From Eledone cirrhosa (lineage: Eukaryota), in the NCBI GenBank assembly GCA_964016885.1, contig OZ024752.1:37014001-37078000 (forward strand): a stretch of 64,000 bases of DNA, read 5' to 3'. Under the pieces are notes generated by a model. The model had not been told where the DNA came from. It worked only from the letters and a program-made list of their open reading frames with translations, and made no database searches. This document shows positions 8,901 through 53,094 of the stretch, piece by piece. Position 1 is the stretch's first letter, and each line of letters begins with the position of its first letter. The position numbers and the translations under genes were made by a program.

Positions 8901-11900
8901 TTTGTTGCTGAGAATGAAGAAATCAACAAGGAGAAGTCATACAATGAATATCCTTTTACTTTACTACAGTACAGTGTTGTATATTCTCAACAGCATTAGT
9001 GAAAGTATGGACTAGGTGCTTCTTCTTGTGTCACCAACACGACCACCTTACAGAGTGGACTGGTTGCTTATTGTTGTGTCACCAACACGACCACCTTACA
9101 GAGTGGACTGGTTGCTTATTGTTGTGTCACCAACACGACCACCTTACAGAGTGGACTGGTTGCTTATTGTTGTGTCACCAACACGACCACCTTACAGAGT
9201 GGACTGGTTGCTTATTGTTGTGTCACCAACACGACCACTTTACAGAGTGGACTGGTGCTTATTGTTGTGTCACCAACACGACCACTTTACAGAGTGGACT
9301 GGTGCTTATTGTTGTGTCACCAACACGACCACCTTACAGAGTGGACTGGTTGCTTATTGTTGTGTCACCAACACGACCACCTTACAGAGTGGACTGGTTG
9401 CTTATTGTTGTGTCACCAACACGACCACCTTACAGAGTGGACTGGTTGCTTATTGTTGTGTCACCAACACAACCACTTTACAGAGTGGACTGGCTGCTTT
9501 TTATCATGTCACCAGCACAACCTCATTACAGGGTGAACTAGGTGCTTTTTGTCGTATCACTGACACAACCACTCTACAGGGTTAATCACCACTCAATTTT
9601 TATATTCAAGATGCTTACATCATTATTTTATGCCTGGTTTTCCATGTTTTCATGAGTTGAATGTATCTTTTCCAGCCCAGCATCCTTCCCCTCATTGTGT
9701 TACTTCATCATCACTCACATAAGCTTCAGTGATTTGAGATCATCTCTCACTGTATCATCTATGTCTTAAGTCTATCTTGAGCCTGAAGACTCATCAGGCC
9801 GGTGTTTATCCTTGGTTTCTGTGGCATGAAGTGATTGACAGTACATGACTCTTCCCTGGGCAGGATGCCAGTTCATCACAGTTAAACCCCCAACTATTTC
9901 TAGTGCTTATTTTCAGCTGAGTATACTGGAGCAATGTGAAATGAAGTGATTGGCTCAAGAACACAACACATAACCTAGTATAGCAATCGAACCCATGACA
10001 TTATGATCGTAAGCTCAACACCCTTACCACTAGGCCACATGCCTTCATGTAATATCTTCACGTAATGTTTATCCTGGAATATATTTACCATAGAAAGGAC
10101 AATAGCCTCTCTGTCCATTAATGGCTTTAGGAAGTTACTTTTGTCCCATTAGGTGATAAGAAGGACATCCAGCTGTAGAAAGCTTGCCAAATGAAGAGTT
10201 GGAAGGACCCTTCAGTTGTGTCAAAGACATGACAATCTCTCCCGTGCACTTGGTAAAATGTGGGACCTTACGTAAAATAACATATGTAAATATAAGACAC
10301 TCTATAAACAAAGCTAACAATAAATAAATTACTCAGGGGACAAGACCATTGAATGCCAAACTTGCAACTAATACACTCATTTAATAAAGCCACTTCCAAA
10401 CTAAATGTCTATACTAGAACCAAGACATTATCCATAATTCATGTTATTTCCACCAGATTAATTAAGTCTTTTATTGTCCCTTGTTCAATTTCCTTTTTCT
10501 TTACAATCCAGAAAAAAAATCAGAAAGTTCATCATCATCATCATCACAATCAACACCACCACCATCATCACCACCATAACTACCACCACCACCATCATCA
10601 TTACCACCACCACCACCATAACTACCACCACCACCACCACCACCACCATAACTACCACCACCATCATTATCACCACTACCACCATCATCACCACCATAAC
10701 TACCACCACCACCACCATCATCACCACTACCACCACCACCACCATCATAACTACCACCACCACCACAACTACCACCACCACCACCACCATCATCATCACC
10801 ACTACCACCACCACCACCATCATAACTACCACCACCACCACAACTACCACCACCACCATAACTACCACCACCATCATTATCACCACTACTACCACCACCA
10901 TCATAACTACCACCACCACTGTTAATGTCTGGAAAAATGGATGTTAAATGATGATGATGATGATGGTGATGATGGTGACCATTGCCAGTTTGTTCTGGAT
11001 ATCTGGAATTCGAATTTAATCTTATTTCCTTGACTCTGTTTATGTATTGGGAGCAGAACTACGTTGTTAGAAAAGACAGAACTCCAATCTTCTTGGCACT
11101 GGTTGTCCAAGAGGTTTTAAATACTGGGAAGTATTTAAATGTTGTACGACAATGTGGTAAGGGGTCCTTTTTTTTATATACATTGTAAGATAATGTGATA
11201 AGGGGTCTTTTTTTATATACATTGTAAGACAATGTGATAAAGGATCCTTTTTTTATATACATTGTAAGACAATGTGATAAGGGATCTTTATTTTATATAC
11301 ATTGTAAGACAATGTGATAAGGGGTCCTTTTTTATATACATTGTAAGACAATGTGGTAATGGGTCCTTTTTTATATACATTGTAAGACAATGTGGTAATG
11401 GGTCCTTTTTTATATACATTGTAAGACAATGTGATAAGGGGTCCTTTTTTTATATACATTGTAAGACAATGTGATAAAGGATCCTTTTTTTATATACATT
11501 GTAAGACAATGTGATAAGGGATCTTTATTTTATATACATTGTAAGACAATGTGATAAGGGGTCCTTTTTTATATACATTGTAAGACAATGTGGTAATGGG
11601 TCCTTTTTTATATACATTGTAAGACAATGTGGTAAGGGGTCTTTTTTTTATATACATTGTAAGACAATGTGGTAAGGGGTCCTTTTTTTATATACATTGT
11701 AAGACAATGTGGTAATGGGTCCTTTTTTATATACATTGTAAGACAATGTGGTAAGGGGTTCTTTTTTTATATACATTGTAAGACAATGTGGTAAGAGGCC
11801 CAGGTGTAGAGGATTGGTGGAATTGTTAAAGAAGAGGATGGGATACCTTATGTTATCCACTCAGGTTCCTTGAGTAGATTTGACAAGTTCCATTGCACTC

Positions 11901-14782: not shown

Positions 14783-14815
<33 letters not shown>

Positions 14816-17800
14816 GGGGGGAGCAGACTCCTCAAACACTCCTTCCATCGGGTTCTGTCAGAAGCAACTGTCTCCAATTGATCTGGCTGGACCCCCAAAT
14901 GAGACCAGCTGAGCATCATGGATGTTATCCAACCATCTTGCTCGGGGTCTCCTTCCGGTTGGTTTTTTCCCTGTAAAATCTGTCCAGTGATTCTTTCCTG
15001 AGACATTACTTTAACATGTGAAGTAGACATTTTTTGTCCTTTCCTTAACTCCATTGCAGACATAAGTCGAAGGAGGATGGAAACTCTGCTAGAACTTGCT
15101 TTACGCACCAGCACTGCAAATGTCGACCCTTTCAAAGATGATTTAAGGTATTTATGTTTAACTTATTCTGTTATTTCTAAGAAATTGTCTTTTATATTGG
15201 TGGGTTAACTCTTTCGTTACCATATTTCTTTTAATTAATGAAGAGTTTGGATGGTTTTACTAAAATATTAATTCATCATCATCATCATCGTCATCGTTTT
15301 TACATCTGTTGTTTCATGTTTTCATGGGTTGGACGGGTTCTTCTCAGCACAGCATCTCTCCACTCTCCACTCGTCGCGTTTCTCTGTCATCTCTCTGAGT
15401 TTCAGTGATTTGAAATCACTTCTCACCACCTCTGCCCAGGTCTTCCTTGGTTTACCTGTTTCCATCCACTGGGATTTCCTGGCACTTTTTCACCCAGCGA
15501 TCATCATCCATGCACATCACATGTCCTGGAGAAGAGATGGGTTCTGCCAGGTTTATAAGTGTCCAAGAAATTCTGTATATCAATACGGTGCCCCTATGAC
15601 ACACTCAGGAGTTACGGGACCCTGTTTGCATGCACCAGGAAACTACACCCTCTCCCCAAATTGTTGGCCTTGTGCCTAAATCCTCAACATTTATTATTAA
15701 AACATTAATAAATAATTATTCCAATGTTATTTTAGGATTCAATTCCAAGAGACCGACCTTATATCTCAGTTGTATGATATCCTCAAAGGTAAATTAGAAT
15801 TTCTCTTACATTTTTTTAACCCTTTAGCATTTAAACCAGTCATAGCTGGCCAGAATTCTCTCACCCGTTTCTGTTCAAACTGGCCATAACCGGCCACACA
15901 TAGTGATGTTAAGGTATTGTTCTGAAAATAAATAGTGTCAAAATCTCATAGATTCGATATTATGTAAGATAATTATGTGAGGTAAAGCCTTTACCTTGAA
16001 AATATAATAGTATATATAGAGTAATGTAAATGCTAAAGGGTTTATGTATTTCTTTAACTCTTTTGATACCTACCCACCCTAAACTTGTCTTGTGATACAT
16101 GTTACTGTGAAAGGTAGGTTGTAATGTTAATGGAGGATACATGTGACTGTGAAAGGTAGGTTGTAATGTTAATGGAGGATACATGTGACTGTGAAAGGTA
16201 GGTTGTAATGTTAATGGAGGATACATGTGACTGTGAAAGGTAGGTTGTAATGTTAATGGAGGATACATGTGACTGTGAAAGGTAGGTTGTAATGTTAATG
16301 GAGGATACATGTGACTGTGAAAGGCAGTTTGTAATGTTAATGGAGGATACATGTGACTGTGAAAGGTAGGTTGTAATGTTAATGGAGGATACATGCGACT
16401 GTGAAAGGTAGGTTGTAATGTTAATGGAGGATACATGTGACTGAAAGGTAGGTTGTAATGTTAATGGAGGATACATGTGACTGAAAGGTAGGTTGTAATG
16501 TTTATGGAGTCTACATGTGACTGTGAAAGGTAGGTTGTAATGTTAATGGAGGATACATGTGACTGTGAAAGGTAGGTTGTAATGTTAATGGAGGATACAT
16601 GTGACTGAAAAGCAGTTTGTAATGTTAATGGAGGATACATGTGACTGAAAGGTAGGTTGTAATGTTTATGAAGGATACATGTTACTGTGAAAGGTAGGTT
16701 GTAATGTTAATGGAGGATACATGTTACTGTGAAAGGTAGGTTGTAATGTTTATGGAGGATACATGTTACTGTGAAAGGCAGTTTGTAATGTTAATGGAGG
16801 ATACATGTGACTGTGAAAGGTAGGTTGTAATGTTAATGGAGGATACATGTTACTGTGAAAGGTAGGTTGTAATGTTAATGGAGGATACATGTGACTGTGA
16901 AAGGTAGGTTGTAATGTTAATGGAGGATACATGTTAGTGTGAAAGGTAGGTTGTAATGTTAATGGAGTCTACATGTGACTGTGAAAGGTAGGTTGTAATG
17001 TTAATGGAGGATACATGTTAGTGTGAAAGGCAGTTTGTAATGTTAATGGAGGATACATGTTACTGTGAAAGGCAGTTTGTAATGTTAATGGAGGATACAT
17101 GTGACTGAAAGGTAGGTTGTAATGTTAATGGAGGATACATGTGACTGTGAAAGGTAGGTTGTAATGTTAATGGAGGATACATGTTAGTGTGAAAGGCAGT
17201 TTGTAATGTTAATGGAGGATACATGTTACTGTGAAAGGCAGTTTGTAATGTTAATGGAGGATACATGTGACTGAAAGGTAGGTTGTAATGTTAATGGAGG
17301 ATACATGTGACTGAAAGGTAGGTTGTAATGTTAATGGAGTCTACATGTGACTGTGAAAGGTAGGTTGTAATGTTAATGGAGGATACATGTTAGTGTGAAA
17401 GGCAGTTTGTAATGTTAATGGAGGATACATGTTACTGTGAAAGGCAGTTTGTAATGTTAATGGAGGATACATGTGACTGTGAAAGGTAGGTTGTAATGTT
17501 AATGGAGGATACATGTTAGTGTGAAAGGTAGGTTGTAATGTTTATGGAGGATACATGTTACTGTGAAAGGTAGGTTGTAATGTTTATGGAGGATACATGT
17601 GACTGTGAAAGGTAGGTTGTAATGTTTATGGAGGATACATGTTACTGTGAAAGGTAGGTTGTAATGTTAATGGAGGATACATGTGACTGTGAAAGGTAGG
17701 TTGTAATGTTAATGGAGGATACATGTTACTGTGAAAGGTAGGTTGTAATGTTTATGGAGGATACATGTGACTGTGAAAGGTAGGTTGTAATGTTAATGGA

Positions 17801-20800
17801 GGATACATGTGACTGTGAAAGGTAGGTTGTAATGTTAATGGAGGATACATGTGACTGTGAAAGGTAGGTTGTAATGTTAATGGAGGATACATGTGACTGT
17901 GAAAGGTAGGTTGTAATGTTAATGGAGGATACATGTAACTGTGAAAGGTAGGTTGTAATGTTAATGGAGGATACATGTGACTGTGAAAGGTAGGTTGTAA
18001 TGTTAATGGAGGATACATGTGACTGAAAGGTAGGTTGTAATGTTAATGGAGGATACATGTGACTGAAAGGTAGGTTGTAATGTTAATGGAGGATACATGT
18101 AACTGTGAAAGGTAGGTTGTAATGTTAATGGAGGATACATGTGACTGTGAAAGGTAGGTTGTAATGTTAATGGAGGATACATGTTAGTGTGAAAGGTAGG
18201 TTGTAATGTTAATGGAGGATACATGTGACTGTGAAAGGTAGGTTGTAATGTTAATGGAGGATACATGTGACTGTGAAAGGTAGGTTGTAATGTTAATGGA
18301 GGATACATGTGACTGTGAAAGGTAGGTTGTAATGTTAATGGAGGATACATGTAACTGTGAAAGGTAGGTTGTAATGTTAATGGAGGATACATGTGACTGT
18401 GAAAGGTAGGTTGTAATGTTAATGGAGGATACATGTGACTGAAAGGTAGGTTGTAATGTTAATGGAGGATACATGTAACTGTGAAAGGTAGGTTGTAATG
18501 TTAATGGAGGATACATGTGACTGTGAAAGGTAGGTTGTAATGTTAATGGAGGATACATGTTAGTGTGAAAGGTAGGTTGTAATGTTAATGGAGGATACAT
18601 GTGACTGTGAAAGGTAGGTTGTAATGTTAATGGAGGATACATGTGACTGTGAAAGGTAGGTTGTAATGTTAATGGAGGATACATGTGACTGTGAAAGGTA
18701 GGTTGTAATGTTAATGGAGGATACATGTAACTGTGAAAGGTAGGTTGTAATGTTAATGGAGGATACATGTGACTGTGAAAGGTAGGTTGTAATGTTAATG
18801 GAGGATACATGTGACTGAAAGGTAGGTTGTAATGTTAATGGAGGATACATGTAACTGTGAAAGGTAGGTTGTAATGTTAATGGAGGATACATGTGACTGT
18901 GAAAGGTAGGTTGTAATGTTAATGGAGGATACATGTTAGTGTGAAAGGTAGGTTGTAATGTTAATGGAGGATACATGTGACTGTGAAAGGTAGGTTGTAA
19001 TGTTAATGGAGGATACATGTGACTGTGAAAGGTAGGTTGTAATGTTAATGGAGGATACATGTGACTGTGAAAGGTAGGTTGTAATGTTAATGGAGGATAC
19101 ATGTAACTGTGAAAGGTAGGTTGTAATGTTAATGGAGGATACATGTGACTGTGAAAGGTAGGTTGTAATGTTAATGGAGGATACATGTGACTGAAAGGTA
19201 GGTTGTAATGTTAATGGAGGATACATGTGACTGAAAGGTAGGTTGTAATGTTAATGGAGGATACATGTAACTGTGAAAGGTAGGTTGTAATGTTAATGGA
19301 GGATACATGTGACTGTGAAAGGTAGGTTGTAATGTTAATGGAGGATACATGTTAGTGTGAAAGGTAGGTTGTAATGTTAATGGAGGATACATGTGACTGT
19401 GAAAGGTAGGTTGTAATGTTAATGGAGGATACATGTAACTGTGAAAGGTAGGTTGTAATGTTAATGGAGGATACATGTGACTGTGAAAGGTAGGTTGTAA
19501 TGTTAATGGAGGATACATGTTAGTGTGAAAGGTAGGTTGTAATGTTTATGGAGGATACATGTGACTGTGAAAGGTAGGTTGTAATGTTTATGGAGGATAC
19601 ATGTGACTGTGAAAGGTAGGTTGTAATGTTTATGGAGGATACATGTGACTGTGAAAGGTAGGTTGTAATGTTAATGGAGGATACATGTGACTGTGAAAGG
19701 TAGGTTGTAATGTTAATGGAGGATACATGTTACTGTGAAAGGTAGGTTGTAATGTTTATGGAGGATACATGTTACTGTGAAAGGTAGGTTGTAATGTTTA
19801 TGGAGGATACATGTGACTGTGAAAGGTAGGTTGTAATGTTAATGGAGGATACATGTTAGTGTGAAAGGTAGGTTGTAATGTTAATGGAGGATACATGTGA
19901 CTGTGAAAGGTAGGTTGTAATGTTAATGGAGGATACATGTAACTGTGAAAGGTAGGTTGTAATGTTAATGGAGGATACATGTGACTGTGAAAGGTAGGTT
20001 GTAATGTTAATGGAGGATACATGTTAGTGTGAAAGGTAGGTTGTAATGTTAATGGAGGATACATGTGACTGAAAGGTAGGTTGTAATGTTAATGGAGGAT
20101 ACATGTAACTGTGAAAGGTAGGTTGTAATGTTAATGGAGGATACATGTGACTGTGAAAGGTAGGTTGTAATGTTAATGGAGGATACATGTTAGTGTGAAA
20201 GGTAGGTTGTAATGTTTATGGAGGATACATGTGACTGTGAAAGGTAGGTTGTAATGTTTATGGAGGATACATGTGACTGTGAAAGGTAGGTTGTAATGTT
20301 TATGGAGGATACATGTGACTGTGAAAGGTAGGTTGTAATGTTAATGGAGGATACATGTTACTGTGAAAGGTAGGTTGTAATGTTAATGGAGGATACATGT
20401 GACTGTGAAAGGTAGGTTGTAATGTTAATGGAGGATACATGTTACTGTGAAAGGTAGGTTGTAATGTTAATGGAGGATACATGTGACTGTGAAAGGTAGG
20501 TTGTAATGTTAATGGAGGATACATGTTAGTGTGAAAGGTAGGTTGTAATGTTAATGGAGTCTACATGTGACTGTGAAAGGTAGGTTGTAATGTTAATGGA
20601 GGATACATGTTAGTGTGAAAGGCAGTTTGTAATGTTAATGGAGGATACATGTTACTGTGAAAGGCAGTTTGTAATGTTAATGGAGGATACATGTGACTGA
20701 AAGGTAGGTTGTAATGTTAATGGAGGATACATGTGACTGTGAAAGGTAGGTTGTAATGTTAATGGAGGATACATGTTAGTGTGAAAGGCAGTTTGTAATG

Positions 20801-23800
20801 TTAATGGAGGATACATGTTACTGTGAAAGGCAGTTTGTAATGTTAATGGAGGATACATGTGACTGAAAGGTAGGTTGTAATGTTAATGGAGGATACATGT
20901 GACTGAAAGGTAGGTTGTAATGTTAATGGAGTCTACATGTGACTGTGAAAGGTAGGTTGTAATGTTAATGGAGGATACATGTTAGTGTGAAAGGCAGTTT
21001 GTAATGTTAATGGAGGATACATGTTACTGTGAAAGGCAGTTTGTAATGTTAATGGAGGATACATGTGACTGAAAGGTAGGTTGTAATGTTAATGGAGGAT
21101 ACATGTGACTGAAAGGTAGGTTGTAATGTTAATGGAGGATACATGTGACTGTGAAAGGTAGGTTGTAATGTTAATGGAGGATACATGTTAGTGTGAAAGG
21201 TAGGTTGTAATGTTTATGGAGGATACATGTTACTGTGAAAGGTAGGTTGTAATGTTAATGGAGGATACATGTGACTGTGAAAGGTAGGTTGTAATGTTAA
21301 TGGAGGATACATGTTACTGTGAAAGGTAGGTTGTAATGTTTATGGAGGATACATGTGACTGTGAAAGGTAGGTTGTAATGTTAATGGAGGATACATGTGA
21401 CTGTGAAAGGTAGGTTGTAATGTTAATGGAGGATACATGTTACTGTGAAAGGTAGGTTGTAATGTTTATGGAGGATACATGTTACTGTGAAAGGTAGGTT
21501 GTAATGTTTATGGAGGATACATGTGACTGTGAAAGGTAGGTTGTAATGTTAATGGAGGATACATGTGACTGTGAAAGGTAGGTTGTAATGTTAATGGAGG
21601 ATACATGTGACTGTGAAAGGTAGGTTGTAATGTTAATGGAGGATACATGTAACTGTGAAAGGTAGGTTGTAATGTTAATGGAGGATACATGTGACTGTGA
21701 AAGGTAGGTTGTAATGTTAATGGAGGATACATGTTAGTGTGAAAGGTAGGTTGTAATGTTTATGGAGGATACATGTGACTGTGAAAGGTAGGTTGTAATG
21801 TTTATGGAGGATACATGTGACTGTGAAAGGTAGGTTGTAATGTTAATGGAGGATACATGTGACTGTGAAAGGTAGGTTGTAATGTTAATGGAGGATACAT
21901 GTTAGTGTGAAAGGTAGGTTGTAATGTTAATGGAGGATACATGTGACTGTGAAAGGTAGGTTGTAATGTTAATGGAGGATACATGTAACTGTGAAAGGTA
22001 GGTTGTAATGTTAATGGAGGATACATGTGACTGTGAAAGGTAGGTTGTAATGTTAATGGAGGATACATGTTAGTGTGAAAGGTAGGTTGTAATGTTAATG
22101 GAGGATACATGTGACTGAAAGGTAGGTTGTAATGTTAATGGAGGATACATGTAACTGTGAAAGGTAGGTTGTAATGTTAATGGAGGATACATGTGACTGT
22201 GAAAGGTAGGTTGTAATGTTAATGGAGGATACATGTTAGTGTGAAAGGTAGGTTGTAATGTTTATGGAGGATACATGTGACTGTGAAAGGTAGGTTGTAA
22301 TGTTTATGGAGGATACATGTGACTGTGAAAGGTAGGTTGTAATGTTTATGGAGGATACATGTGACTGTGAAAGGTAGGTTGTAATGTTAATGGAGGATAC
22401 ATGTTACTGTGAAAGGTAGGTTGTAATGTTAATGGAGGATACATGTGACTGTGAAAGGTAGGTTGTAATGTTAATGGAGGATACATGTTACTGTGAAAGG
22501 TAGGTTGTAATGTTAATGGAGGATACATGTGACTGTGAAAGGTAGGTTGTAATGTTAATGGAGGATACATGTTAGTGTGAAAGGTAGGTTGTAATGTTAA
22601 TGGAGTCTACATGTGACTGTGAAAGGTAGGTTGTAATGTTAATGGAGGATACATGTTAGTGTGAAAGGCAGTTTGTAATGTTAATGGAGGATACATGTTA
22701 CTGTGAAAGGCAGTTTGTAATGTTAATGGAGGATACATGTGACTGAAAGGTAGGTTGTAATGTTAATGGAGGATACATGTGACTGTGAAAGGTAGGTTGT
22801 AATGTTAATGGAGGATACATGTTAGTGTGAAAGGCAGTTTGTAATGTTAATGGAGGATACATGTTACTGTGAAAGGCAGTTTGTAATGTTAATGGAGGAT
22901 ACATGTGACTGAAAGGTAGGTTGTAATGTTAATGGAGGATACATGTGACTGAAAGGTAGGTTGTAATGTTAATGGAGTCTACATGTGACTGTGAAAGGTA
23001 GGTTGTAATGTTAATGGAGGATACATGTTAGTGTGAAAGGCAGTTTGTAATGTTAATGGAGGATACATGTTACTGTGAAAGGCAGTTTGTAATGTTAATG
23101 GAGGATACATGTGACTGAAAGGTAGGTTGTAATGTTAATGGAGGATACATGTGACTGAAAGGTAGGTTGTAATGTTAATGGAGGATACATGTGACTGTGA
23201 AAGGTAGGTTGTAATGTTAATGGAGGATACATGTTAGTGTGAAAGGTAGGTTGTAATGTTTATGGAGGATACATGTTACTGTGAAAGGTAGGTTGTAATG
23301 TTTATGGAGGATACATGTGACTGTGAAAGGTAGGTTGTAATGTTTATGGAGGATACATGTTACTGTGAAAGGTAGGTTGTAATGTTAATGGAGGATACAT
23401 GTGACTGTGAAAGGTAGGTTGTAATGTTAATGGAGGATACATGTTACTGTGAAAGGTAGGTTGTAATGTTTATGGAGGATACATGTGACTGTGAAAGGTA
23501 GGTTGTAATGTTAATGGAGGATACATGTGACTGTGAAAGGTAGGTTGTAATGTTAATGGAGGATACATGTTAGTGTGAAAGGTAGGTTGTAATGTTTATG
23601 GAGGATACATGTGACTGTGAAAGGTAGGTTGTAATGTTTATGGAGGATACATGTGACTGTGAAAGGTAGGTTGTAATGTTAATGGAGGATACATGTGACT
23701 GTGAAAGGTAGGTTGTAATGTTAATGGAGGATACATGTTAGTGTGAAAGGTAGGTTGTAATGTTAATGGAGGATACATGTGACTGTGAAAGGTAGGTTGT

Positions 23801-26800
23801 AATGTTAATGGAGGATACATGTAACTGTGAAAGGTAGGTTGTAATGTTAATGGAGGATACATGTGACTGTGAAAGGTAGGTTGTAATGTTAATGGAGGAT
23901 ACATGTTAGTGTGAAAGGTAGGTTGTAATGTTTATGGAGGATACATGTGACTGTGAAAGGTAGGTTGTAATGTTTATGGAGGATACATGTGACTGTGAAA
24001 GGTAGGTTGTAATGTTTATGGAGGATACATGTGACTGTGAAAGGTAGGTTGTAATGTTAATGGAGGATACATGTTACTGTGAAAGGTAGGTTGTAATGTT
24101 AATGGAGGATACATGTGACTGTGAAAGGTAGGTTGTAATGTTAATGGAGGATACATGTGACTGTGAAAGGTAGGTTGTAATGTTAATGGAGGATACATGT
24201 GACTGTGAAAGGTAGGTTGTAATGTTAATGGAGGATACATGTAACTGAAAGGTAGGTTGTAATGTTAATGGAGGATACATGTGACTGTGAAAGGTAGGTT
24301 GTAATGTTTATGGAGGATACATGTGACTGTGAAAGGTAGGTTGTAATGTTAATGGAGGATACATGTGACTGTGAAAGGTAGGTTGTAATGTTAATGGAGG
24401 ATACATGTGACTGTGAAAGGTAGGTTGTAATGTTAATGGAGGATACATGTAACTGTGAAAGGTAGGTTGTAATGTTAATGGAGGATACATGTGACTGTGA
24501 AAGGTAGGTTGTAATGTTTATGGAGGATACATGTGACTGTGAAAGGTAGGTTGTAATGTTAATGGAGGATACATGTGACTGTGAAAGGTAGGTTGTAATG
24601 TTAATGGAGGATACATGTAACTGTGAAAGGTAGGTTGTAATGTTAATGGAGGATACATGTGACTGTGAAAGGTAGGTTGTAATGTTAATGGAGGATACAT
24701 GTTAGTGTGAAAGGTAGGTTGTAATGTTTATGGAGGATACATGTGACTGTGAAAGGTAGGTTGTAATGTTTATGGAGGATACATGTGACTGTGAAAGGTA
24801 GGTTGTAATGTTTATGGAGGATACATGTGACTGTGAAAGGTAGGTTGTAATGTTAATGGAGGATACATGTTACTGTGAAAGGTAGGTTGTAATGTTAATG
24901 GAGGATACATGTGACTGAAAGGTAGGTTGTAATGTTAATGGAGGATACATGTTAGTGTGAAAGGTAGGTTGTAATGTTAATGGAGGATACATGTAACTGT
25001 GAAAGGTAGGTTGTAATGTTTATGGAGGATACATGTGACTGTGAAAGGTAGGTTGTAATGTTTATGGAGGATACATGTGACTGTGAAAGGTAGGTTGTAA
25101 TGTTTATGAAGGATACATGTTACTGTGAAAGGTAGGTTGTAATGTTAATGGAGGATACATGTGACTGAAAGGTAGGTTGTAATGTTAATGGAGGATACAT
25201 GTGACTGTGAAAGGCAGTTTGTAATGTTAATGGAGGATACATGTGACTGTGAAAGGTAGGTTGTAATGTTTATGAAGGATACATGTTACTGTGAAAGGCA
25301 GTTTGTAATGTTAATGGAGGATACATGTTACTGTGAAAGGCAGTTTGTAATGTTTATGGAGGATACATGTGACTGAAAGGTAGGTTGTAATGTTAATGGA
25401 GGATACATGTGACTGAAAGGTAGGTTGTAATGTTAATGGAGGATACATGGGACTGTGAAAGGTAGGTTGTAATGTTAATGGAGGATACATGTTAGTGTGA
25501 AAGGCAGTTTGTAATGTTAATGGAGGATACATGTTAGTGTGAAAGGTAGGTTGTAATGTTTATGGAGGATACATGTGACTGTGAAAGGTAGGTTGTAATG
25601 TTTATGGAGGATACATGTGACTGTGAAAGGTAGGTTGTAATGTTTATGGAGGATACATGTGACTGAAAGGTAGGTTGTAATGTTAATGGAGGATACATGG
25701 GACTGTGAAAGGTAGGTTGTAATGTTAATGGAGGATACATGTTAGTGTGAAAGGCAGTTTGTAATGTTAATGGAGGATACATGTTACTGTGAAAGGCAGT
25801 TTGTAATGTTAATGGAGGATACATGTGACTGAAAGGTAGGTTGTAATGTTAATGGAGGATACATGTGACTGAAAGGTAGGTTGTAATGTTAATGGAGGAT
25901 ACATGGGACTGTGAAAGGTAGGTAGTAATGTTAATGGAGGATACATGTGACTGTGAAAGGTAGGTTGTAATGTTAATGGAGGATACATGTTAGTGTGAAA
26001 GGTAGGTTGTAATGTTTATGGAGGATACATGTGACTGTGAAAGGTAGGTTGTAATGTTTATGGAGGATACATGTGACTGTGAAAGGTAGGTTGTAATGTT
26101 TATGGAGGATACATGTGACTGAAAGGTAGGTTGTAATGTTAATGGAGGATACATGGGACTGTGAAAGGTAGGTTGTAATGTTAATGGAGGATACATGTTA
26201 GTGTGAAAGGCAGTTTGTAATGTTAATGGAGGATACATGTTACTGTGAAAGGCAGTTTGTAATGTTAATGGAGGATACATGTGACTGAAAGGTAGGTTGT
26301 AATGTTAATGGAGGATACATGTGACTGAAAGGTAGGTTGTAATGTTAATGGAGGATACATGGGACTGTGAAAGGTAGGTAGTAATGTTAATGGAGGATAC
26401 ATGTGACTGTGAAAGGTAGGTTGTAATGTTAATGGAGGATACATGTTAGTGTGAAAGGTAGGTTGTAATGTTTATGGAGGATACATGTGACTGTGAAAGG
26501 TAGGTTGTAATGTTTATGGAGGATACATGTGACTGTGAAAGGTAGGTTGTAATGTTTATGGAGGATACATGTGACTGTGAAAGGTAGGTTGTAATGTTAA
26601 TGGAGGATACATGTTACTGTGAAAGGCAGTTTGTAATGTTAATGGAGGATACATGTGACTGTGAAAGGTAGGTTGTAATGTTAATGGAGGATACATGTGA
26701 CTGAAAGGTAGGTTGTAATGTTAATGGAGGATACATGTTAGTGTGAAAGGCAGTTTGTAATGTTAATGGAGGATACATGTGACTGAAAGGTAGGTTGTAA

Positions 26801-29800
26801 TGTTTATGGAGGATACATGTGACTGTGAAAGGTAGGTTGTAATGTTTATGGAGGATACATGTGACTGTGAAAGGTAGGTTGTAATGTTTATGAAGGATAC
26901 ATGTTACTGTGAAAGGTAGGTTGTAATGTTAATGGAGGATACATGTTACTGTGAAAGGCAGTTTGTAATGTTTATGGAGGATACATGTGACTGAAAGGTA
27001 GGTTGTAATGTTAATGGAGGATACATGTTAGTGTGAAAGGCAGTTTGTAATGTTAATGGAGGATACATGTGACTGAAAGGTAGGTTGTAATGTTAATGGA
27101 GGATACATGTGACTGAAAGGTAGGTTGTAATGTTAATGGAGGATACATGGGACTGTGAAAGGTAGGTTGTAATGTTAATGGAGGATACATGTGACTGTGA
27201 AAGGTAGGTTGTAATGTTAATGGAGGATACATGTTAGTGTGAAAGGTAGGTTGTAATGTTAATGGAGGATACATGTGACTGTGAAAGGTAGGTTGTAATG
27301 TTTATGGAGGATACATGTGACTGAAAGGTAGGTTGTAATGTTTATGGAGGATACATGTTAGTGTGAAAGGTAGGTTGTAATGTTAATGGAGGATACATGT
27401 TACTGTGAAAGGCAGTTTGTAATGTTAATGGAGGATACATGTGACTGTGAAAGGTAGGTTGTAATGTTTATGGAGGATACATGTTACTGTGAAAGGTAGG
27501 TTGTAATGTTAATGGAGGATACATGTTACTGTGAAAGGTAGGTTGTAATGTTAATGGAGGATACATGTTACTGTGAAAGGTAGGTTGTAATGTTTATGGA
27601 GGATACATGTGACTGTGAAAGGTAGGTTGTAATGTTTATGGAGGATACATGTGACTGTGAAAGGTAGTTTGTAATGTTAATGGAGGATACATGTGACTGT
27701 GAAAGGTAGGTTGTAATGTTAATGGAGGATACATGTGACTGTGAAAGGTAGGTTGTAATGTTTATGAAGGATACATGTTACTGTGAAAGGTAGGTTGTAA
27801 TGTTAATGGAGGATACATGTGACTGTGAAAGGCAGTTTGTAATGTTAATGGAGGATACATGTTACTGTGAAAGGTAGGTTGTAATGTTAATGGAGGATAC
27901 ATGTTACTGTGAAAGGTAGGTTGTAATGTTTATGGAGGATACATGTTACTGTGAAAGGTAGTTTGTAATGTTAATGGAGGATACATGTTACTGTGAAAGG
28001 TAGGTTGTAATGTTAATGGAGGATACATGTTACTGTGAAAGGTAGTTTGTAATGTTAATGGAGGATACATGTGACTGTGAAAGGTAGGTTGTAATGTTTA
28101 TGGAGGATACATGTGACTGAAAGGTAGGTTGTAATGTTTATGAAGGATACATGTTACTGTGAAAGGCAGTTTGTAATGTTAATGGAGGATACATGTGACT
28201 GTGAAAGGTAGGTTGTAATGTTTATGGAGGATACATGTTACTGTGAAAGGTAGGTTGTAATGTTTATGGAGGATACATGTGACTGTGAAAGGTAGGTTGT
28301 AATGTTTATGGAGGATACATGTGACTGTGAAAGGTAGTTTGTAATGTTAATGGAGGATACATGTGACTGTGAAAGGTAGGTTGTAATGTTAATGGAGGAT
28401 ACATGTGACTGTGAAAGGTAGGTTGTAATGTTTATGAAGGATACATGTTACTGTGAAAGGTAGGTTGTAATGTTAATGGAGGATACATGTGACTGTGAAA
28501 GGCAGTTTGTAATGTTAATGGAGGATACATGTTACTGTGAAAGGTAGGTTGTAATGTTAATGGAGGATACATGTTACTGTGAAAGGTAGGTTGTAATGTT
28601 TATGGAGGATACATGTTACTGTGAAAGGTAGTTTGTAATGTTAATGGAGGATACATGTTACTGTGAAAGGTAGGTTGTAATGTTAATGGAGGATACATGT
28701 TACTGTGAAAGGTAGTTTGTAATGTTAATGGAGGATACATGTGACTGTGAAAGGTAGGTTGTAATGTTTATGGAGGATACATGTTACTGTGAAAGGTAGG
28801 TTGTAATGTTAATGGAGGATACATGTTACTGTGAAAGGTAGTTTGTAATGTTAATGGAGGATACATGTGACTGTGAAAGGTAGGTTGTAATGTTTATGGA
28901 GGATACATGTTACTGTGAAAGGTAGGTTGTAATGTTAATGGAGGATACATGTTACTGTGAAAGGTAGTTTGTAATGTTAATGGAGGATACATGTGACTGT
29001 GAAAGGTAGGTTGTAATGTTTATGGAGGATACATGTTACTGTGAAAGGTAGGTTGTAATGTTAATGGAGGATACATGTTACTGTGAAAGGTAGGTTGTAA
29101 TGTTAATGGAGGATACATGTTACTGTGAAAGGTAGGTTGTAATGTTAATGGAGGATACATGTTACTGTGAAAGGTAGTTTGTAATGTTAATGGAGGATAC
29201 ATGTGACTGTGAAAGGCAGTTTGTAATGTTAATGGAGGATACATGTTACTGTGAAAGGTAGGTTGTAATGTTAATGGAGGATACATGTTACTGTGAAAGG
29301 TAGGTTGTAATGTTTATGGAGGATACATGTTACTGTGAAAGGTAGTTTGTAATGTTAATGGAGGATACATGTTACTGTGAAAGGTAGGTTGTAATGTTAA
29401 TGGAGGATACATGTTACTGTGAAAGGTAGTTTGTAATGTTAATGGAGGATACATGTGACTGTGAAAGGTAGGTTGTAATGTTTATGGAGGATACATGTTA
29501 CTGTGAAAGGTAGGTTGTAATGTTAATGGAGGATACATGTTACTGTGAAAGGTAGTTTGTAATGTTAATGGAGGATACATGTGACTGTGAAAGGTAGGTT
29601 GTAATGTTTATGAAGGATACATGTTACTGTGAAAGGTAGGTTGTAATGTTAATGGAGGATACATGTGACTGTGAAAGGCAGTTTGTAATGTTAATGGAGG
29701 ATACATGTGACTGTGAAAGCTAGGTTGTAATGTTTATGGAGGATACATGTGACTGTGAAAGGTAGGTTGTAATGTTTATGAAGGATACATGTTACTGTGA

Positions 29801-32800
29801 AAGGTAGGTTGTAATGTTAATGGAGGATACATGTGACTGTGAAAGGTAGGTTGTAATGTTAATGGAGGATACATGTTAGTGTGAAAGCTAGGTTGTAATG
29901 TTTATGGAGGATACATGTGACTGTGAAAGGTAGGTAGTAATGTTAATGGAGGATACATGTGACTGTGAAAGGTAGGTTGTAATGTTTATGGAGGATACAT
30001 GTGACTGTGAAAGGTAGGTTGTAATGTTAATGGAGGATACATGTTAGTGTGAAAGGTAGGTTGTAATGTTAATGGAGGATACATGTGACTGTGAAAGGTA
30101 GGTTGTAATGTTTATGGAGGATACATGTGACTGTGAAAGGTAGGTTGTAATGTTAATGGAGGATACATGTTACTGTGAAAGGCAGTTTGTAATGTTAATG
30201 GAGGATACATGTGACTGTGAAAGGTAGGTTGTAATGTTTATGGAGGATACATGTGACTGTGAAAGGCAGTTTGTAATGTTAATGGAGGATACATGTTACT
30301 GTGAAAGGCAGTTTGTAATGTTAATGGAGGATACATGTGACTGTGAAAGGTAGGTTGTAATGTTTATGAAGGATACATGTTACTGTGAAAGGTAGGTTGT
30401 AATGTTAATGGAGGATACATGTGACTGTGAAAGGTAGGTTGTAATGTTAATGGAGGATACATGTTAGTGTGAAAGGTAGGTTGTAATGTTAATGGAGGAT
30501 ACATGTGACTGTAAAAGGTAGGTTGTAATGTTAATGGAGGATACATGTTAGTGTGAAAGGTAGGTTGTAATGTTAATGGAGGATACATGTGACTGTGAAA
30601 GGTAGGTTGTAATGTTAATGGAGGATACATGTTAGTGTGAAAGGTAGGTTGTAATGTTAATGGAGGATACATGTGACTGTGAAAGCTAGGTTGTAATGTT
30701 TATGGAGGATACATGTGACTGTGAAAGGTAGGTTGTAATGTTTATGGAGGATACATGTGACTGTGAAAGGTAGGTTGTAATGTTAATGGAGGATACATGT
30801 TACTGTGAAAGGCAGTTTGTAATGTTAATGGAGGATACATGTGACTGTGAAAGGTAGGTTGTAATGTTAATGGAGGATACATGTGACTGAAAGGTAGGTT
30901 GTAATGTTAATGGAGGATACATGTGACTGAAAGGTAGGTTGTAATGTTAATGGAGGATACATGTTACTGTGAAAGGCAGTTTGTAATGTTAATGGAGGAT
31001 ACATGTTAGTGTGAAAGGCAGTTTGTAATGTTAATGGAGGATACATGTTAGTGTGAAAGGCAGTTTGTAATGTTAATGGAGGATACATGTGACTGTGAAA
31101 GGTAGGTTGTAATGTTAATGGAGGATACATGTTAGTGTGAAAGGCAGTTTGTAATGTTAATGGAGGATACATGTTAGTGTGAAAGGTAGGTTGTAATGTT
31201 TATGGAGGATACATGTTACTGTGAAAGGCAGTTTGTAATGTTAATGGAGGATACATGTGACTGTGAAAGGTAGGTTGTAATGTTTATGGAGGATACATGT
31301 TACTGTGAAAGGCAGTTTGTAATGTTAATGGAGGATACATGTGACTGTGAAAGGTAGGTTGTAATGTTAATGGAGGATACATGTTAGTGTGAAAGGCAGT
31401 TTGTAATGTTAATGGAGGATACATGTTACTGTGAAAGGCAGTTTGTAATGTTAATGGAGGATACATGTGACTGAAAGGTAGGTTGTAATGTTTATGGAGG
31501 ATACATGTTACTGTGAAAGGCAGTTTGTAATGTTAATGGAGGATACATGTGACTGTGAAAGGCAGTTTGTAATGTTAATGGAGGATACATGTGACTGAAA
31601 GGTAGGTTGTAATGTTAATGGAGGATACATGTGACTGAAAGGTAGGTTGTAATGTTAATGGAGGATACATGTGACTGAAAGGTAGGTTGTAATGTTAATG
31701 GAGGATACATGTGACTGAAAGGTAGGTTGTAATGTTAATGGAGGATACATGTGACTGAAAGGTAGGTTGTAATGTTAATGGAGGATACATGTGACTGAAA
31801 GGTAGGTTGTAATGTTAATGGAGGATACATGTGACTGAAAGGTAGGTTGTAATGTTTATGAAGGATACATGTTACTGTGAAAGGTAGGTTGTAATGTTAA
31901 TGGAGGATACATGTTACTGTGAAAGGCAGTTTGTAATGTTAATGGAGGATACATGTGACTGAAAGGTAGGTTGTAATGTTTATGAAGGATACATGTTACT
32001 GTGAAAGGTAGGTTGTAATGTTAATGGAGGATACATGTTACTGTGAAAGGCAGTTTGTAATGTTAATGGAGGATACATGTGACTGAAAGGTAGGTTGTAA
32101 TGTTTATGAAGGATACATGTTACTGTGAAAGGTAGGTTGTAATGTTAATGGAGGATACATGTTACTGTGAAAGGCAGTTTGTAATGTTAATGGAGGATAC
32201 ATGTGACTGTGAAAGGTAGGTTGTAATGTTAATGGAGGATACATGGGACTGTGAAAGGTAGGTTGTAATGTTAATGGAGGATACATGTGACTGTGAAAGG
32301 CAGTTTGTAATGTTAATGGAGGATACATGTGACTGTGAAAGGTAGGTTGTAATGTTAATGGAGGATACATGTGACTGTGAAAGGTAGGTTGTAATGTTAA
32401 TGGAGGATACATGTTAGTGTGAAAGGCAGTTTGTAATGTTAATGGAGGATACATGTTACTGTGAAAGGCAGTTTGTAATGTTAATGGAGGATACATGTGA
32501 CTGAAAGGTAGGTTGTAATGTTAATGGAGGATACATGTGACTGAAAGGTAGGTTGTAATGTTAATGGAGGATACATGTGACTGTGAAAGGTAGGTTGTAA
32601 TGTTAATGGAGGATACATGTTAGTGTGAAAGGTAGGTTGTAATGTTAATGGAGGATACATGTGACTGTGAAAGGTAGGTTGTAATGTTTATGGAGGATAC
32701 ATGTGACTGTGAAAGGCAGTTTGTAATGTTTATGGAGGATACATGTGACTGTGAAAGGCAGTTTGTAATGTTTATGGAGGATACATGTGACTGTGAAAGG

Positions 32801-34630
32801 CAGTTTGTAATGTTTATGGAGGATACATGTGACTGTGAAAGGTAGGTTGTAATGTTAATGGAGGATACATGTGACTGAAAAGCAGTTTGTAATGTTAATG
32901 GAGGATACATGTGACTGAAAGGTAGGTTGTAATGTTAATGGAGGATACATGTGACTGTGAAAGGCAGTTTGTAATGTTAATGGAGGATACATGTGACTGA
33001 AAGGTAGGTTGTAATGTTAATGGAGGATACATGTGACTGTGAAAGGTAGGTTGTAATGTTAATGGAGGATACATGTGACTGTGAAAGGCAGTTTGTAATG
33101 TTAATGGAGGATACATGTGACTGTGAAAGGTAGGTTGTAATGTTTATGGAGTCTACATGTTAGTATGAGAGGTAGTTTGTAATGTTAGTCTACATGTGAG
33201 TGGTGAAAATACTGAGAGTTGGTTGAGATAAGATATCCATTTAAAACATTTTTTTATTTGTTTCCTGTCTGTTGATCTTTTCTAGCAATGCGTAGCAGCC
33301 CTGTTGAAAGTAACCTGTCTGTTGATCTTTTCTAGCAATGCGTAGCAGCTCTGTTGAAAGTAACCTGTCTGTTGATCTTTTCTAGCAATGCGTAGCAGCC
33401 CTGTTGAAAGTAACCTGTCTGTTGATCTTTTCTAGCAATGCGTAGCAGCTCTGTTGAAAGTAACCTGTCTGTTGATCTTTTCTAGCAATGCGTAGCAGCC
33501 CTGTTGAAAGTAACCTGTCTGTTGATCTTTTCTAGCAATGCGTAGCAGCCCTGTTGAAAGTAACCTGTCTGGACTGGAATCTTTCTCCTTCAATTACAAT
33601 GTCAAATGGCCTTTAACTCTTGTTTTAAATAGAAAGGTTAGTTTTGGTTTCTACTTTAAAAAAAAAGTACTTTTCATTATGGATCGGCAGTATTGGTAGA
33701 GCGTCAGATACCGTGATTTGTAGCATAGAGTTATGGCCCTTTACGTTCTGAGTTCAAATCCCGGCGAGGTTAAACTTTGCATGTCATCCTTACGGGGGTC
33801 GATAAAATAAAGCCCCAGTGTAATTGCTGGTCTTGTGCCAGAAGTAGAAACAATTATTACTAGAGCGGTGGATTGGCAGTATCGGTAGAGCGTCAGACAG
33901 CATGCTTTGCAGCATAGAGTTATGGCCCTTTGCGTTCTGAGTTCAAATCCCGGCGAGGTTGAACTTTGCCTTTCATCCTTACGGGGTCGATAAAATAAAG
34001 TACCAGTAATACACTGGGGTGATTGTTGGCTTTGCTGGCTTTGTGCCAAAAGTAGAAACAATTGTTCTTAATATAACACTGATGGATTGGCAGTATAGGT
34101 AGAGGGTCGTACAACAGGTTTTGTGACATATAGTTACGTCCCTTTACATTCTGAGTTCAAATCCTGCTGAGGATAGCTTTGCCTTTCATCCTTATGGAGA
34201 CCGATAAAATAAAGTACCAGTAATCCACTGGGGTTGATTTTAATTGACTTTCGCTTCTCCAAAAATTGTTAGCCTTATGTCTAAATCAGAAGCCTTTTTT
34301 ATTCTTATTCTTAGTACCCTCAATAAACCTCATAAAGGAGTGTGGCCCCTGTCATTAATAACTCCCAAAAAGCTCCCTATGTGATGCTGGCAAAAACCCA
34401 TGGTGTGGAAATTAGTTTGAAATATTAAAGTTATAAAAACCACCAACTATGTTGTGTCATAAAACATTATTGGTTAGGTAGGACTCCCTAAATCTTTAGA
34501 CTTTACCTACCTATTGTCGGTGCTTATTTGTTTTAGCTATGAGAAGTTTATTGGAATTCTACCATTCTGTTTTTGTTTTAATCTTCAGTATCTCCATTGT
34601 TTATATTGAAAGAGAGTGAAACAACATATT

Positions 34631-34661
<31 letters not shown>

Positions 34662-37600
34662 AATTATTGTGTAAAGTGCTCAGGTGCACTACAACTCGTC
34701 AATATAGTACATAGACTAATACACAAATGTCAGGGAAGTACATGTGTGTATGTGTTAGCTGTTCTGTTGGCGGATCTCGGGAAGCATGGAGGCCTTAAAG
34801 GATGCAGTGTCTCGACAGCTAACAACTGACGCAGGCAGTTTGTTCCATGAGTGTCTTAAAGGATGCAGTGTCTCGACAGCTAACAACTGATGCAGGTAGT
34901 TTGTTCCATGCTTCAGCAACTCTGAGCGTGAAAAAATGTTTCCGAAAGTCATGGGAGCTGTGGTGTTTTCTTACTTTGTGGGCATGTCCACGTGTGTTAG
35001 ACACATGGAGATCGAAAAGGTACTCAGGGTTGTTGAAATTTCTAGTTAAGCTAGATGCTCTGAAATAATACTTTCCCTTGGCCTTACTCTTCTATATTAT
35101 TTCATTCTTAGGCTCTTATGCTCTACCAATTGTTGTTTCGGCAGCTGTTCTACTGTAAACATGTGGAACGACAATTATGCAAGTAAGTTTGAGCATAATC
35201 TTTACTGTACTTCACATAACATAAGCTTTGCTGTACTTCACATAATGTAATCTTCATTGTACTTCACATAACATAACATAATCTTTACTGTACTTCACAT
35301 AACATAAGCTTTGTTATACTTCACATAACATAAGCTTTGCTATACTTCACATAATGTAATCTTCACTGTACTTCACATAACATAACATAATCTTTACTGT
35401 ACTTCACATAACATAAGCTTTGCTGTACTTCACATAACATAAGCTTTGCTATACTTCACATAATGTAATCTTCACTGTACTTCACATAACATAACATAAT
35501 CTTTACTGTACTTCACATAACATAAGCTTTGCTGTACTTCACATAACATAAGCTTTGCTATACTTCACATAATGTAATCTTCACTGTACTTCACATAACA
35601 TAACATAATCTTTACTGTACTTCACATAACATAAGCTTTGCTATACTTCACATAACATAATCTTTACTGTACTTCACATAACATAAGCTTTGCTATACTT
35701 CACATAACATAATCTTTACTGTACTTCACATAACATAAGCTTTGCTATACTTCACATAACATAATCTTTACTGTACTTCACATAACATAATCTTTACTAT
35801 ACTTCACATAACATAATCTTTACTGTACTTCACATAACATAAGCTTTGCTATACTTCACATAACATAATCTTTACTGTACTTCACATAACATAAGCTTTG
35901 CTATTCTTCACATAACATAATATTTACTGTACTTCACATAACATAAGCTTTACTATACTTCACATAACATAATCTTTACTGTACTTCACATAACATAAGC
36001 TTTGCTATACTTCACATAACATAATCTTTACTGTACTTCACATAACATAAGCTTTGCTATTCTTCACATAACATAATATTTACTGTACTTCACATAACAT
36101 AATCTTTACTGTACTTCACATAACATAAGCTTTACTATACTTCACATAACATAATCTTTACTGTACTTCACATAACATAAGCTTTGCTATACTTCACATA
36201 ACATAAGCTTTACTGTACTTCACATAACATAAGCTTTACTATACTTCACATAACATAATCTTTACTGTACTTCACATAACATAAGCTTTGCTATACTTCA
36301 CATAACATAATCTTCACTGTACTTCACATAACATAAGCTTTACTATACTTCACATAACATAATCTTTACTGTACTTCACATAACATAAGCTTTGCTATAC
36401 TTCACATAACATAAGCTTTACTGTACTTCACATAACATAATCTTTACTATACTTCACATAACGTAATCTTTACTGTACTTCACATAACATAATCTTTACT
36501 ATACTTCACACAACATAAAATTTACTATACTTCACATAACATAAGCTTTGCTAAACTTCACATAACATAAGCTTTACTATACTTCACATAACATACCATA
36601 ATCTTTACTGTAATTCACATAACATAAGCTTTGCTAAACTTCACTATAATTCACACAACATAAACTTTACTATACTTATTAGCAGAGAAAGCAGACATTA
36701 AATGATGATAGTGATGATGATGATGATGACGTTGAATCACATGAAGAAAGTTAAAAAGTTAAAATTTAAATGGTATATCTTTTGTTTCAGTTTATGGTTA
36801 CAAAATAAATGTGTAAAACTTCTCCCTGCCAAAGGTTATACTGCTGCATTTGCATTGAGACAACGTATGTTGAACTTCATCCAAAATCTAGAATATTATT
36901 TAATGGTTGAAGTTATTGAACCAAACTGGCATATCTTTCTCAACAAAATGGAAACGGTAAATACTTTACCTGCTTGTCTTTATTTGCTCCTTCACCCTTT
37001 AGCATTTACATTACTCTATATTTACTATTGTATTTTTATGGTAAAGGCCTTACCTCACATAATATCTCACATAATATTGTATCTATGAGATTTTGATATT
37101 ATTTATTTTGAGAACAATACCTTAACATCAGTATGAGTGGCCAGTTTGAACAGAAAGAGGTGAGAGAATTCTGGCTGGATATGGCCAGTTTAAATGCTAA
37201 AGGGTTAATTGTTTCTTATTTTTCTTCTGAAGTTCTATTCTATTATATTATATGTATTGTAAATCTCAAGGTCAACTTTGCCTTTCATTTATTTGAGGCC
37301 GATAGAAAAAAGAACCAGTCAAGTACTGGGTTGATTTTTCCCTCACTTCCATTCTATCACTCTCTTTCCTTCTCTGGAAGAAATCTGTATTTAGACCTGG
37401 AGAGGGATGGGTGCTGCCAGATTTAAAAAATGCCATGGAAATGCTGTATGTTAATGTGGCGCCCTATGACTCTATCAGGGGTTACGGGACCATAAGCTAT
37501 TTTATAGCATCTCTCTTCATGAGCCCATCATTCTTTATATTAACTTTATCTTCTCAGCACTTTGTAAAAGTTTCGAGATATCGGTTATGTATCCATGATA

Positions 37601-53027: not shown

Positions 53028-53094
53028 CTAAGAAATTATATTGTTGGCAGACAAGTGAAGTGATAAATTGTAGAGAGAGAGAGTATATGATAAT

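What the first reader, a model, noticed from the sequence alone, without database searches (positions are those of the whole stretch)
33264..33571. Six tandem splice acceptors: only the last is directly productive, or a new intron is being born
Seen: a 50-bp unit covering the acceptor and the first exon bases is repeated six times, bounded by CCTGTCTG microhomology present in both intron and exon. Using any of acceptors 1-5 and reading on hits the next unit's TAG in frame (...GTT GAT CTT TTC TAG). Acceptor 1 (33285) has the original long pyrimidine tract. Each unit also contains GAAA/GTAACC, a possible donor. Splicing acceptor 1 to a 24-nt micro-exon (33286-33309) and then removing 33310-33535 keeps the frame and adds 8 residues ([21 protein letters not shown]). 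Inference: either distal acceptor choice with poison alternatives, or intron gain by tandem duplication of an AG/GT-containing segment, a proposed but seldom observed mechanism.
Basis: partly seen in the sequence, partly recalled or inferred. Interest (0 to 1): 0.75.

Follow-up and report, generated by a model that had tools for sequence, protein, structure and literature searches.

The report
Splice-site "mirage" repeat in octopus TUBGCP2
A 50-base piece spanning an intron end and the start of the next exon in an octopus cell-division gene is repeated six times, but a likely messenger-RNA contig joins only at the last copy, so this is most likely a harmless repeat of a type already described in lancelets, not a new intron.

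Summary
Six 50-bp units (33264-33563, plus 8 bp) repeat the 3' splice site and first 28 bases of coding exon 23 of an intact octopod TUBGCP2 gene. Reading on from acceptors 1-5 hits a TAG. DNA contigs span the unit junction, so the duplication is real. The intron-birth reading is not supported. A 3,074-nt contig, inferred to be mRNA, matches 33534-33637 without a difference, and its ends fit direct splicing to acceptor 6, not the 24-nt micro-exon. The proposed donor scores below all 27 real U2 donors of the gene. All 19 cephalopod GCP2 proteins spanning the junction lack the insertion. The same gene has a mirror array over a donor (11142-11795), and 2 of its 58 splice sites lie in arrays against 1.2 expected by chance. 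Best reading: a near-neutral minisatellite born at an 8-bp microhomology and tolerated because exon definition picks the acceptor nearest the exon's donor. This is an amphioxus-type "mirage" (PMC3087553); the intron-gain route is also published (PMC4974935). The scan noted three similar arrays elsewhere in this genome (unchecked). Caveat: the RNA sample may lack the array.

The parts
33264..33571 (+). Tandem array, 6 x 50 bp plus 8 bp; each unit is 22 nt of intron end plus 28 nt of exon start
   Evidence: junction-spanning 80-nt contigs in X2-X4
33264..33271 (+). Left microhomology arm (8 bp, intronic in origin)
33564..33571 (+). Right microhomology arm (8 bp, inside the exon)
33284..33285 (+). 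Acceptor 1, with the ancestral long pyrimidine tract and a branch-point-like motif at -30; use would give a 351-nt exon with a premature TAG
33334..33485 (+). Acceptors 2-5 (AG ending 33335, 33385, 33435, 33485); each is followed by an in-frame TAG 101-251 nt before the exon end
33310..33315 (+). Proposed cryptic donor GTAACC (one per unit); weaker than all 27 real U2 donors of the gene
33510..33514 (+). Exon-derived GTAAC that the duplication places at -23 of acceptor 6; candidate replacement branch point (inferred, untested)
33534..33535 (+). Acceptor 6, the one used in the likely mRNA contig
33536..33636 (+). TUBGCP2 coding exon 23 (101 nt), PF04130 GCP C-terminal domain
15736..15788 (+). 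TUBGCP2 coding exon 22 (53 nt), upstream splicing partner
16094..33187 (+). 17-kb 42-bp satellite filling the same intron (15789-33535); it ends 77 bp before the array
35112..35182 (+). TUBGCP2 coding exon 24, downstream partner
11142..11795 (+). Mirror case in the same gene: 40-bp array, 17 donor-like positions, first unit spans the end of exon 18 and its GT donor (11156/11157); 8 of the 16 extra copies have lost GT

Best explanation
The array is a real minisatellite of six splice acceptors in the TUBGCP2 gene, likely born by duplication between two 8-bp microhomologies and likely near-neutral because the spliceosome likely picks the last acceptor, the one nearest the exon's donor. Shown: the array, the microhomology, the stop codons behind acceptors 1-5, the intact reading frame from acceptor 6, and a contig whose ends fit exon 22 to acceptor 6 to exon 24. 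Inferred: (1) first duplication by slippage or microhomology-mediated repair, then a C>T change and a 100-bp re-duplication that gave the C,T,C,T pattern; (2) both flanking introns are long (17.7 kb and 1.5 kb), so the exon is defined across itself and the closest acceptor-donor pair (101 nt) wins over acceptor 1's better pyrimidine tract; (3) the exon-derived GTAAC at -23 may serve as branch point for acceptor 6; (4) any leak to acceptors 1-5 would carry a stop 101-301 nt before the next junction and would be a nonsense-mediated-decay target.
For:: X1 record of 3,074 nt covers exactly 33534-33637, 0 other letters, 0 gaps. The two extra letters upstream and the one downstream are those that exon 22's end and exon 24's start would give. 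Its length fits the whole coding sequence plus about 177 nt and 250 nt of UTR. Only one locus in the assembly matches the exon, so a retrocopy is unlikely; the cryptic donor is weaker than 27 of 27 real U2 donors; acceptor 6's pyrimidine share (0.63) and AG-free zone (25 nt) fall inside the range of the gene's other 26 U2 acceptors (0.53-0.82; 18-97 nt); 19 of 19 cephalopod GCP2 proteins spanning the junction (27 examined, 8 do not span it) have the direct-splice spacing; 2 of 58 splice sites lie in arrays, 1.17 expected under uniform placement. The donor array in the same gene is also compatible with an open frame only at the exon-proximal copy as mapped. Literature: cross-exon proximity rule (PMC9225289, passages); mirages do not disturb splicing in amphioxus (PMC3087553, passages; PMC3902484, passage); microhomology-mediated tandem duplication (PMC13167724, abstract and opening).
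Against: X1 is not on record as RNA and comes from another sample (S1) than the runs holding the array (S2), so that animal may carry a single-copy allele and the contig would then say nothing about acceptor choice. The junction to exon 22 is read from a two-letter extension, not seen directly. Contigs drop rare variants, so minor isoforms are invisible. Acceptor 1 has the stronger pyrimidine tract, and the acceptor's 22-nt core scores at the bottom of the gene's acceptors (3.9, range 3.9-14.5), so leak is plausible. The proximity rule comes from human data. The splice-site matrix rests on 27 sites of one gene. Proteins of relatives do not show whether those species carry the array. In an unselected sample, 0 of 60 kinesin and chaperonin loci had such an array at the matched exon, so these arrays are not frequent and mild purifying selection is not excluded.
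Confidence: 0.8

Rival explanations
1. Incipient intron gain of the potato RdRp type: an upstream acceptor plus the in-unit GTAACC donor defines a 24-nt micro-exon, and the rest of the array becomes a new intron, adding 8 residues, at least as a minor isoform.
For: The frame is kept, and introns of 226, 176, 126 or 76 nt are long enough from acceptors 1-4. The insertion falls in a linker that is 21 residues in 19 cephalopod proteins but 28-29 in 99 other GCP2 proteins (same gap against solved GCP2 chains), so 8 more residues would restore the usual length and might be tolerated. Precedent: PMC4974935 and the model in PMC3087553 Fig. 7.
Against: The likely mRNA contig has AG, not AA, before the exon. 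The donor scores -0.6; 37% of all GT positions in the gene score as well; it lacks both -1G and +5G, unlike 27 of 27 real donors. The potato donor was a consensus GTAAG. The gene's shortest internal exon is 43 nt.
Confidence: 0.06
2. Leaky or regulated unproductive splicing: acceptors 1-5 are used at a real rate, the products are removed by nonsense-mediated decay, and copy number tunes GCP2 dose.
For: All five upstream acceptors are intact; acceptor 1 has the better tract. Each places a stop more than 55 nt before the next junction.
Against: No sign of selection or regulation: the array frequency fits chance. In the F7 VNTR the extra sites are functional but silent (PMC1557585, abstract and discussion). 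No direct evidence for use exists.
Confidence: 0.08
3. The array is a mildly harmful allele of one individual or population, and the normal mRNA comes from a single-copy allele or animal.
For: S1 and S2 are different samples. Copy number across animals is untested.
Against: Six copies with an internal variant and a 100-bp higher-order pattern imply several generations of turnover. The gene is single-copy and intact in the assembly.
Confidence: 0.04
4. Assembly artefact.
For: The array lies 77 bp from a 17-kb satellite. The exact copy number is not confirmed by reads.
Against: Three runs hold an 80-nt contig across the unit junction, a sequence that exists only if the duplication is real; they are one sample and may be the source of the assembly. 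The units differ at one site in a regular pattern.
Confidence: 0.02

Closest known systems
Amphioxus 'mirage' minisatellites: globin BflGb6 and BflGb9, Adh3, troponin C, PGBD5 (PMC3087553 passages; PMC3902484 passage; the original Adh3 paper not seen)
   Same: BflGb6 repeats the 3' end of an intron plus the 5' part of the next exon, 6 and 3 units on two haplotypes, with splice signals kept and normal mRNA. The authors propose the same intron-gain model.
   Different: Mollusc instead of cephalochordate; 50-bp unit against 150-160 bp in BflGb6 (Adh3: 10-72 bp); 98% unit identity; copy-number variation not tested here.
Potato RdRp intron gain by tandem duplication (PMC4974935, parts 1-3 of 5 read)
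   Same: Duplication crosses an acceptor and exon start; a cryptic donor in the formerly exonic part could make a new intron.
   Different: There the donor is GTAAG and 106 RNA-seq reads support the new junction. Here the donor is far from consensus and the contig seen shows the old junction.
Human F7 intron 7 37-bp VNTR (PMC1557585, abstract and discussion)
   Same: Identical tandem splice sites of which only the exon-proximal one is used; direct analogue of the donor array at 11142-11795.
   Different: F7 repeats a donor; the finding repeats an acceptor.
Rogers model of precise intron gain by duplication of an AGGT-containing exon segment (PMC3443670 passages)
   Same: A tandem duplication supplies AG and GT.
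   Different: The unit has no AGGT, is partly intronic, and would change the protein.
Microhomology-mediated tandem duplication (PMC13167724, abstract and opening)
   Same: Unit bounded by an exact 8-bp microhomology, later expansion.
   Different: No difference seen; the mechanism is inferred from the sequence signature.

Membership tests
Mirage minisatellite | Tandem repeat whose unit spans an exon-intron boundary of the host gene | tested here: met
Mirage minisatellite | Copies keep splice signals that could act as cryptic sites | tested here: met
   6 of 6 units keep the AG and 20-nt tract
Mirage minisatellite | Host mRNA is spliced normally | tested here: inconclusive
   Direct-splice contig in X1, but RNA status is inferred and the sample may lack the array
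Mirage minisatellite | Length instability between haplotypes or in soma | not tested
Intron gain by tandem duplication (potato type) | Duplication crossing an acceptor and exon start | tested here: met
Intron gain by tandem duplication (potato type) | Usable donor in the duplicated exon part | tested here: not met
   Score -0.6 against 0.9-13.3; lacks -1G and +5G, as 0 of 27 real donors do
Intron gain by tandem duplication (potato type) | New junction present in mature mRNA | tested here: not met
   The one transcript-like contig fits the old junction; minor isoforms cannot be seen in contigs
Intron gain by tandem duplication (potato type) | Phylogeny showing absence in relatives' genomes | not testable with these tools
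   No relative genomes held; relatives' proteins lack the insertion
Rogers AGGT model | AGGT proto-splice site in a wholly exonic duplicated segment | tested here: not met
   The unit has AGT and 22 intronic bases
Recursive splice (ratchet) site | Acceptor AG directly followed by GT | tested here: not met
   Each AG is followed by CA
TUBGCP2 / GCP2 | PF04130 domain and orthology to named GCP2 proteins | tested here: met
   PF04130 in 4 of 4 exons scanned, 3 over the cut-off; 791 of 884 residues identical to O. bimaculoides GCP2

The most novel reading that the evidence does not exclude
The array is an intron birth caught mid-way: in carriers a minor share of transcripts includes the 24-nt micro-exon, which restores the GCP2 linker to the length that non-cephalopods have (21 to 29 residues), so one better donor base could fix a new intron; array copy number would also tune GCP2 dose through decay of stop-containing products.
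Probability: 0.07. Interest if true: 0.55.

Novelty: new member of a known kind. Interest (0 to 1): 0.2.

Why it matters
As it stands it is a small, tidy example of a known oddity. Its modest value is as a natural test of splice-site choice. One gene carries both an acceptor array and a donor array, and in the acceptor case the copy with the weaker pyrimidine tract appears to win by position, as cross-exon proximity predicts. My two literature searches listed no cephalopod case, so the taxon may be new for mirages, but the scan already noted larger ones in this genome. If the micro-exon were used, it would be a rare snapshot of intron gain in an essential animal gene.

Tried and rejected
No RNA holder was listed by the run search; X1 is treated as RNA only by inference from its exon-bounded contig. 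X1 had no cover over units 1-5 and X2-X4 had none over the flanks or the exon body; a hole proves nothing and is not used. Depth of the 80-nt contigs (23-42) is no copy number, and no single-copy depth was available. The junction to exon 22 was not viewed from the exon 22 side, so it stays inferred. RNA folding of 33240-33660 gave less structure than shuffles (z = +2.2; 100 of 100 shuffles fold at least as well), so hairpin masking of acceptors 1-5 was rejected. A 6-nt micro-exon from the unit's first GT also keeps the frame but scores -8.2. No protein of this species was recognised among the hits of the two homologue searches. Sampling other genes: 0 of 60 loci (30 best of 107 kinesin matches, 30 best of 47 chaperonin matches; 6 of the 60 are long, probably intronless) had an array over the matched exon; the two TRF rows that touched a match were one poly-A tract. 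So the idea that such arrays cover several percent of splice sites genome-wide is not supported. A word search of earlier findings gave nothing. No structure prediction or complex job was run. No supplements were read; the globin paper's additional file 4 holds the mirage alignment and was not opened.

Full report
Observation. The array is as described: six 50-bp units from 33264 to 33563 plus 8 bp, 98% matches. The units differ at one site in the order C,T,C,T,C,C. Each unit is 22 nt of intron end and 28 nt of exon start. The 8-bp microhomology at the ends is exact, and only 50 of 8,850 unique positions in the window have an 8-mer repeat 20-100 nt downstream. Runs X2-X4 (one sample) each hold an 80-nt contig across the unit junction with no difference. 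Eighty is one unit plus 30, the length I expect of a collapsed repeat cycle if the assembly word is 31 (inference). The duplication is therefore real; the copy number is unconfirmed.

Host gene. The exons match PF04130. The closest proteins are GCP2 of Argonauta and Octopus species. Mapping against O. bimaculoides GCP2 gives 30 coding exons (8 upstream of the window in L006), about 880 residues, no internal stop, and 791 of 884 identical. I moved the donor of exon 29 by hand by 6 nt to 44940 before scoring. The array sits at the acceptor of exon 23 (33536-33636), at the end of a 17.7-kb intron that is mostly a 42-bp satellite. The genome search found this exon at one place only.

Which acceptor is used. 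Reading on from acceptors 1-5 meets a TAG 101-301 nt before the exon end; only acceptor 6 is open. A 3,074-nt contig of run X1 covers exactly 33534-33637 with no difference. The two letters before the exon are those at the end of exon 22 and not those at the end of the proposed micro-exon; the one letter after it is the first of exon 24. Use of an upstream acceptor would have extended the match by 50 nt or more. The contig's length fits the coding sequence plus short UTRs. I infer it is the mRNA. Limits: the run is not on record as RNA, it is a different sample from the one that shows the array, exon 22 itself was not in the stretch laid, and contigs drop rare forms.

The intron-gain branch. 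A matrix from the gene's 27 U2 donors scores the in-unit GTAACC site at -0.6; real donors score 0.9-13.3 when left out one at a time; 37% of 2,383 GT positions in the gene score as well. None of the 27 lacks both -1G and +5G. The unit has no AGGT. All 19 cephalopod proteins that span the junction have the direct spacing (27 examined). One point favours tolerance: the linker is 21 residues in cephalopods but 28-29 in the 99 other GCP2 proteins that matched my pattern, of 179 stored, so 8 more residues would probably fit. That keeps the idea open as a minor isoform only.

How it likely works. A first duplication between the two microhomology arms, then expansion, matches the published route for tandem-repeat birth (PMC13167724, abstract and opening). 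With long introns on both sides the exon should be defined across itself, and in human data the closest acceptor-donor pair across the exon is preferred (PMC9225289, passages). That favours acceptor 6 although acceptor 1 keeps the better tract. Acceptor 6 is still within the gene's normal range for pyrimidine share and AG-free zone, and the duplication puts an exon-derived GTAAC at -23, a possible branch point (the motif and the usual distance are recalled knowledge). RNA structure does not explain the choice. Decay of leak products rests on the recalled 50-55 nt rule and is untested.

Is it more than chance? The gene has 13 minisatellites of period 15-150 with 2.5 or more copies. Uniform placement would put 1.17 of them over one of 58 splice sites; 2 are observed, one of them the selected finding. 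The second is a 40-bp array over the donor of exon 18, where 8 of 16 extra copies have lost GT, including the four nearest the real donor; a 237-bp higher-order repeat means these losses are not independent. In 60 unselected kinesin and chaperonin loci none had such an array (both TUBGCP2 exons were detected as positive controls). So these arrays recur but are uncommon.

Comparison. Tandem repeats spanning exon-intron boundaries are called mirages in amphioxus. BflGb6 has the same anatomy, 6 and 3 units, normal mRNA, and the same intron-gain proposal (PMC3087553, passages; PMC3902484, passage). The completed intron gain is documented in potato (PMC4974935, parts 1-3 of 5). The donor analogue is the F7 VNTR (PMC1557585, abstract and discussion). 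The globin paper appeared in my own search listing, but the name and its relevance came to me from earlier scan notes, which list three larger arrays of this type elsewhere in this genome; I checked the papers, not those loci. Searches for 'mirage, minisatellite, splice' (3 papers) and 'octopus, minisatellite, intron, splice site, tandem repeats' (77 papers with 4 of 5 terms, 12 listed) listed no cephalopod case. The library lacks most subscription papers.

Verdict. Real feature, new member of a known kind, most likely silent. Interest 0.2.

Noticed in passing
window 11142-11795: Second mirage in the same gene: 40-bp array over the donor of exon 18, 17 donor-like positions, 8 with GT changed to AT, including the four next to the real donor.
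   Followed up: partly
window 8948-11043: Intron with minor-spliceosome (U12) signals and non-canonical AT...AT ends: donor ATATCCTT, branch-like TTCCTTGAC before the acceptor; the join restores the homologous protein. Some O. vulgaris and O. bimaculoides database models are split into 421-aa and 468-aa pieces, the first ending at this intron, which suggests an annotation failure here. U12 motifs recalled.
   Followed up: partly
window 14330-15059: Second U12-type intron, GT-AG ends, donor GTATCCTT and branch-like TTCCTTAAC.
   Followed up: partly
window 15736-33636 (protein linker of exons 22-23): Cephalopod GCP2 has a linker 7-8 residues shorter (21) than other animals (28-29) at this exon junction.
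   Followed up: partly
window 16094-33187: 17-kb 42-bp satellite (about 410 copies, strong GC skew near 0.74) fills one intron of an essential gene.
   Followed up: no
window 37896-38479, 38697-39761, 53090-53718: Tandem multimers (about 195-bp period) of an abundant short interspersed repeat; the same repeat follows exon 23 and draws very high depth.
   Followed up: no
L028:1525 and L028:2379: A 19-nt stretch at the edge of a kinesin exon match recurs 854 bp away; possibly a partial exon duplication.
   Followed up: no
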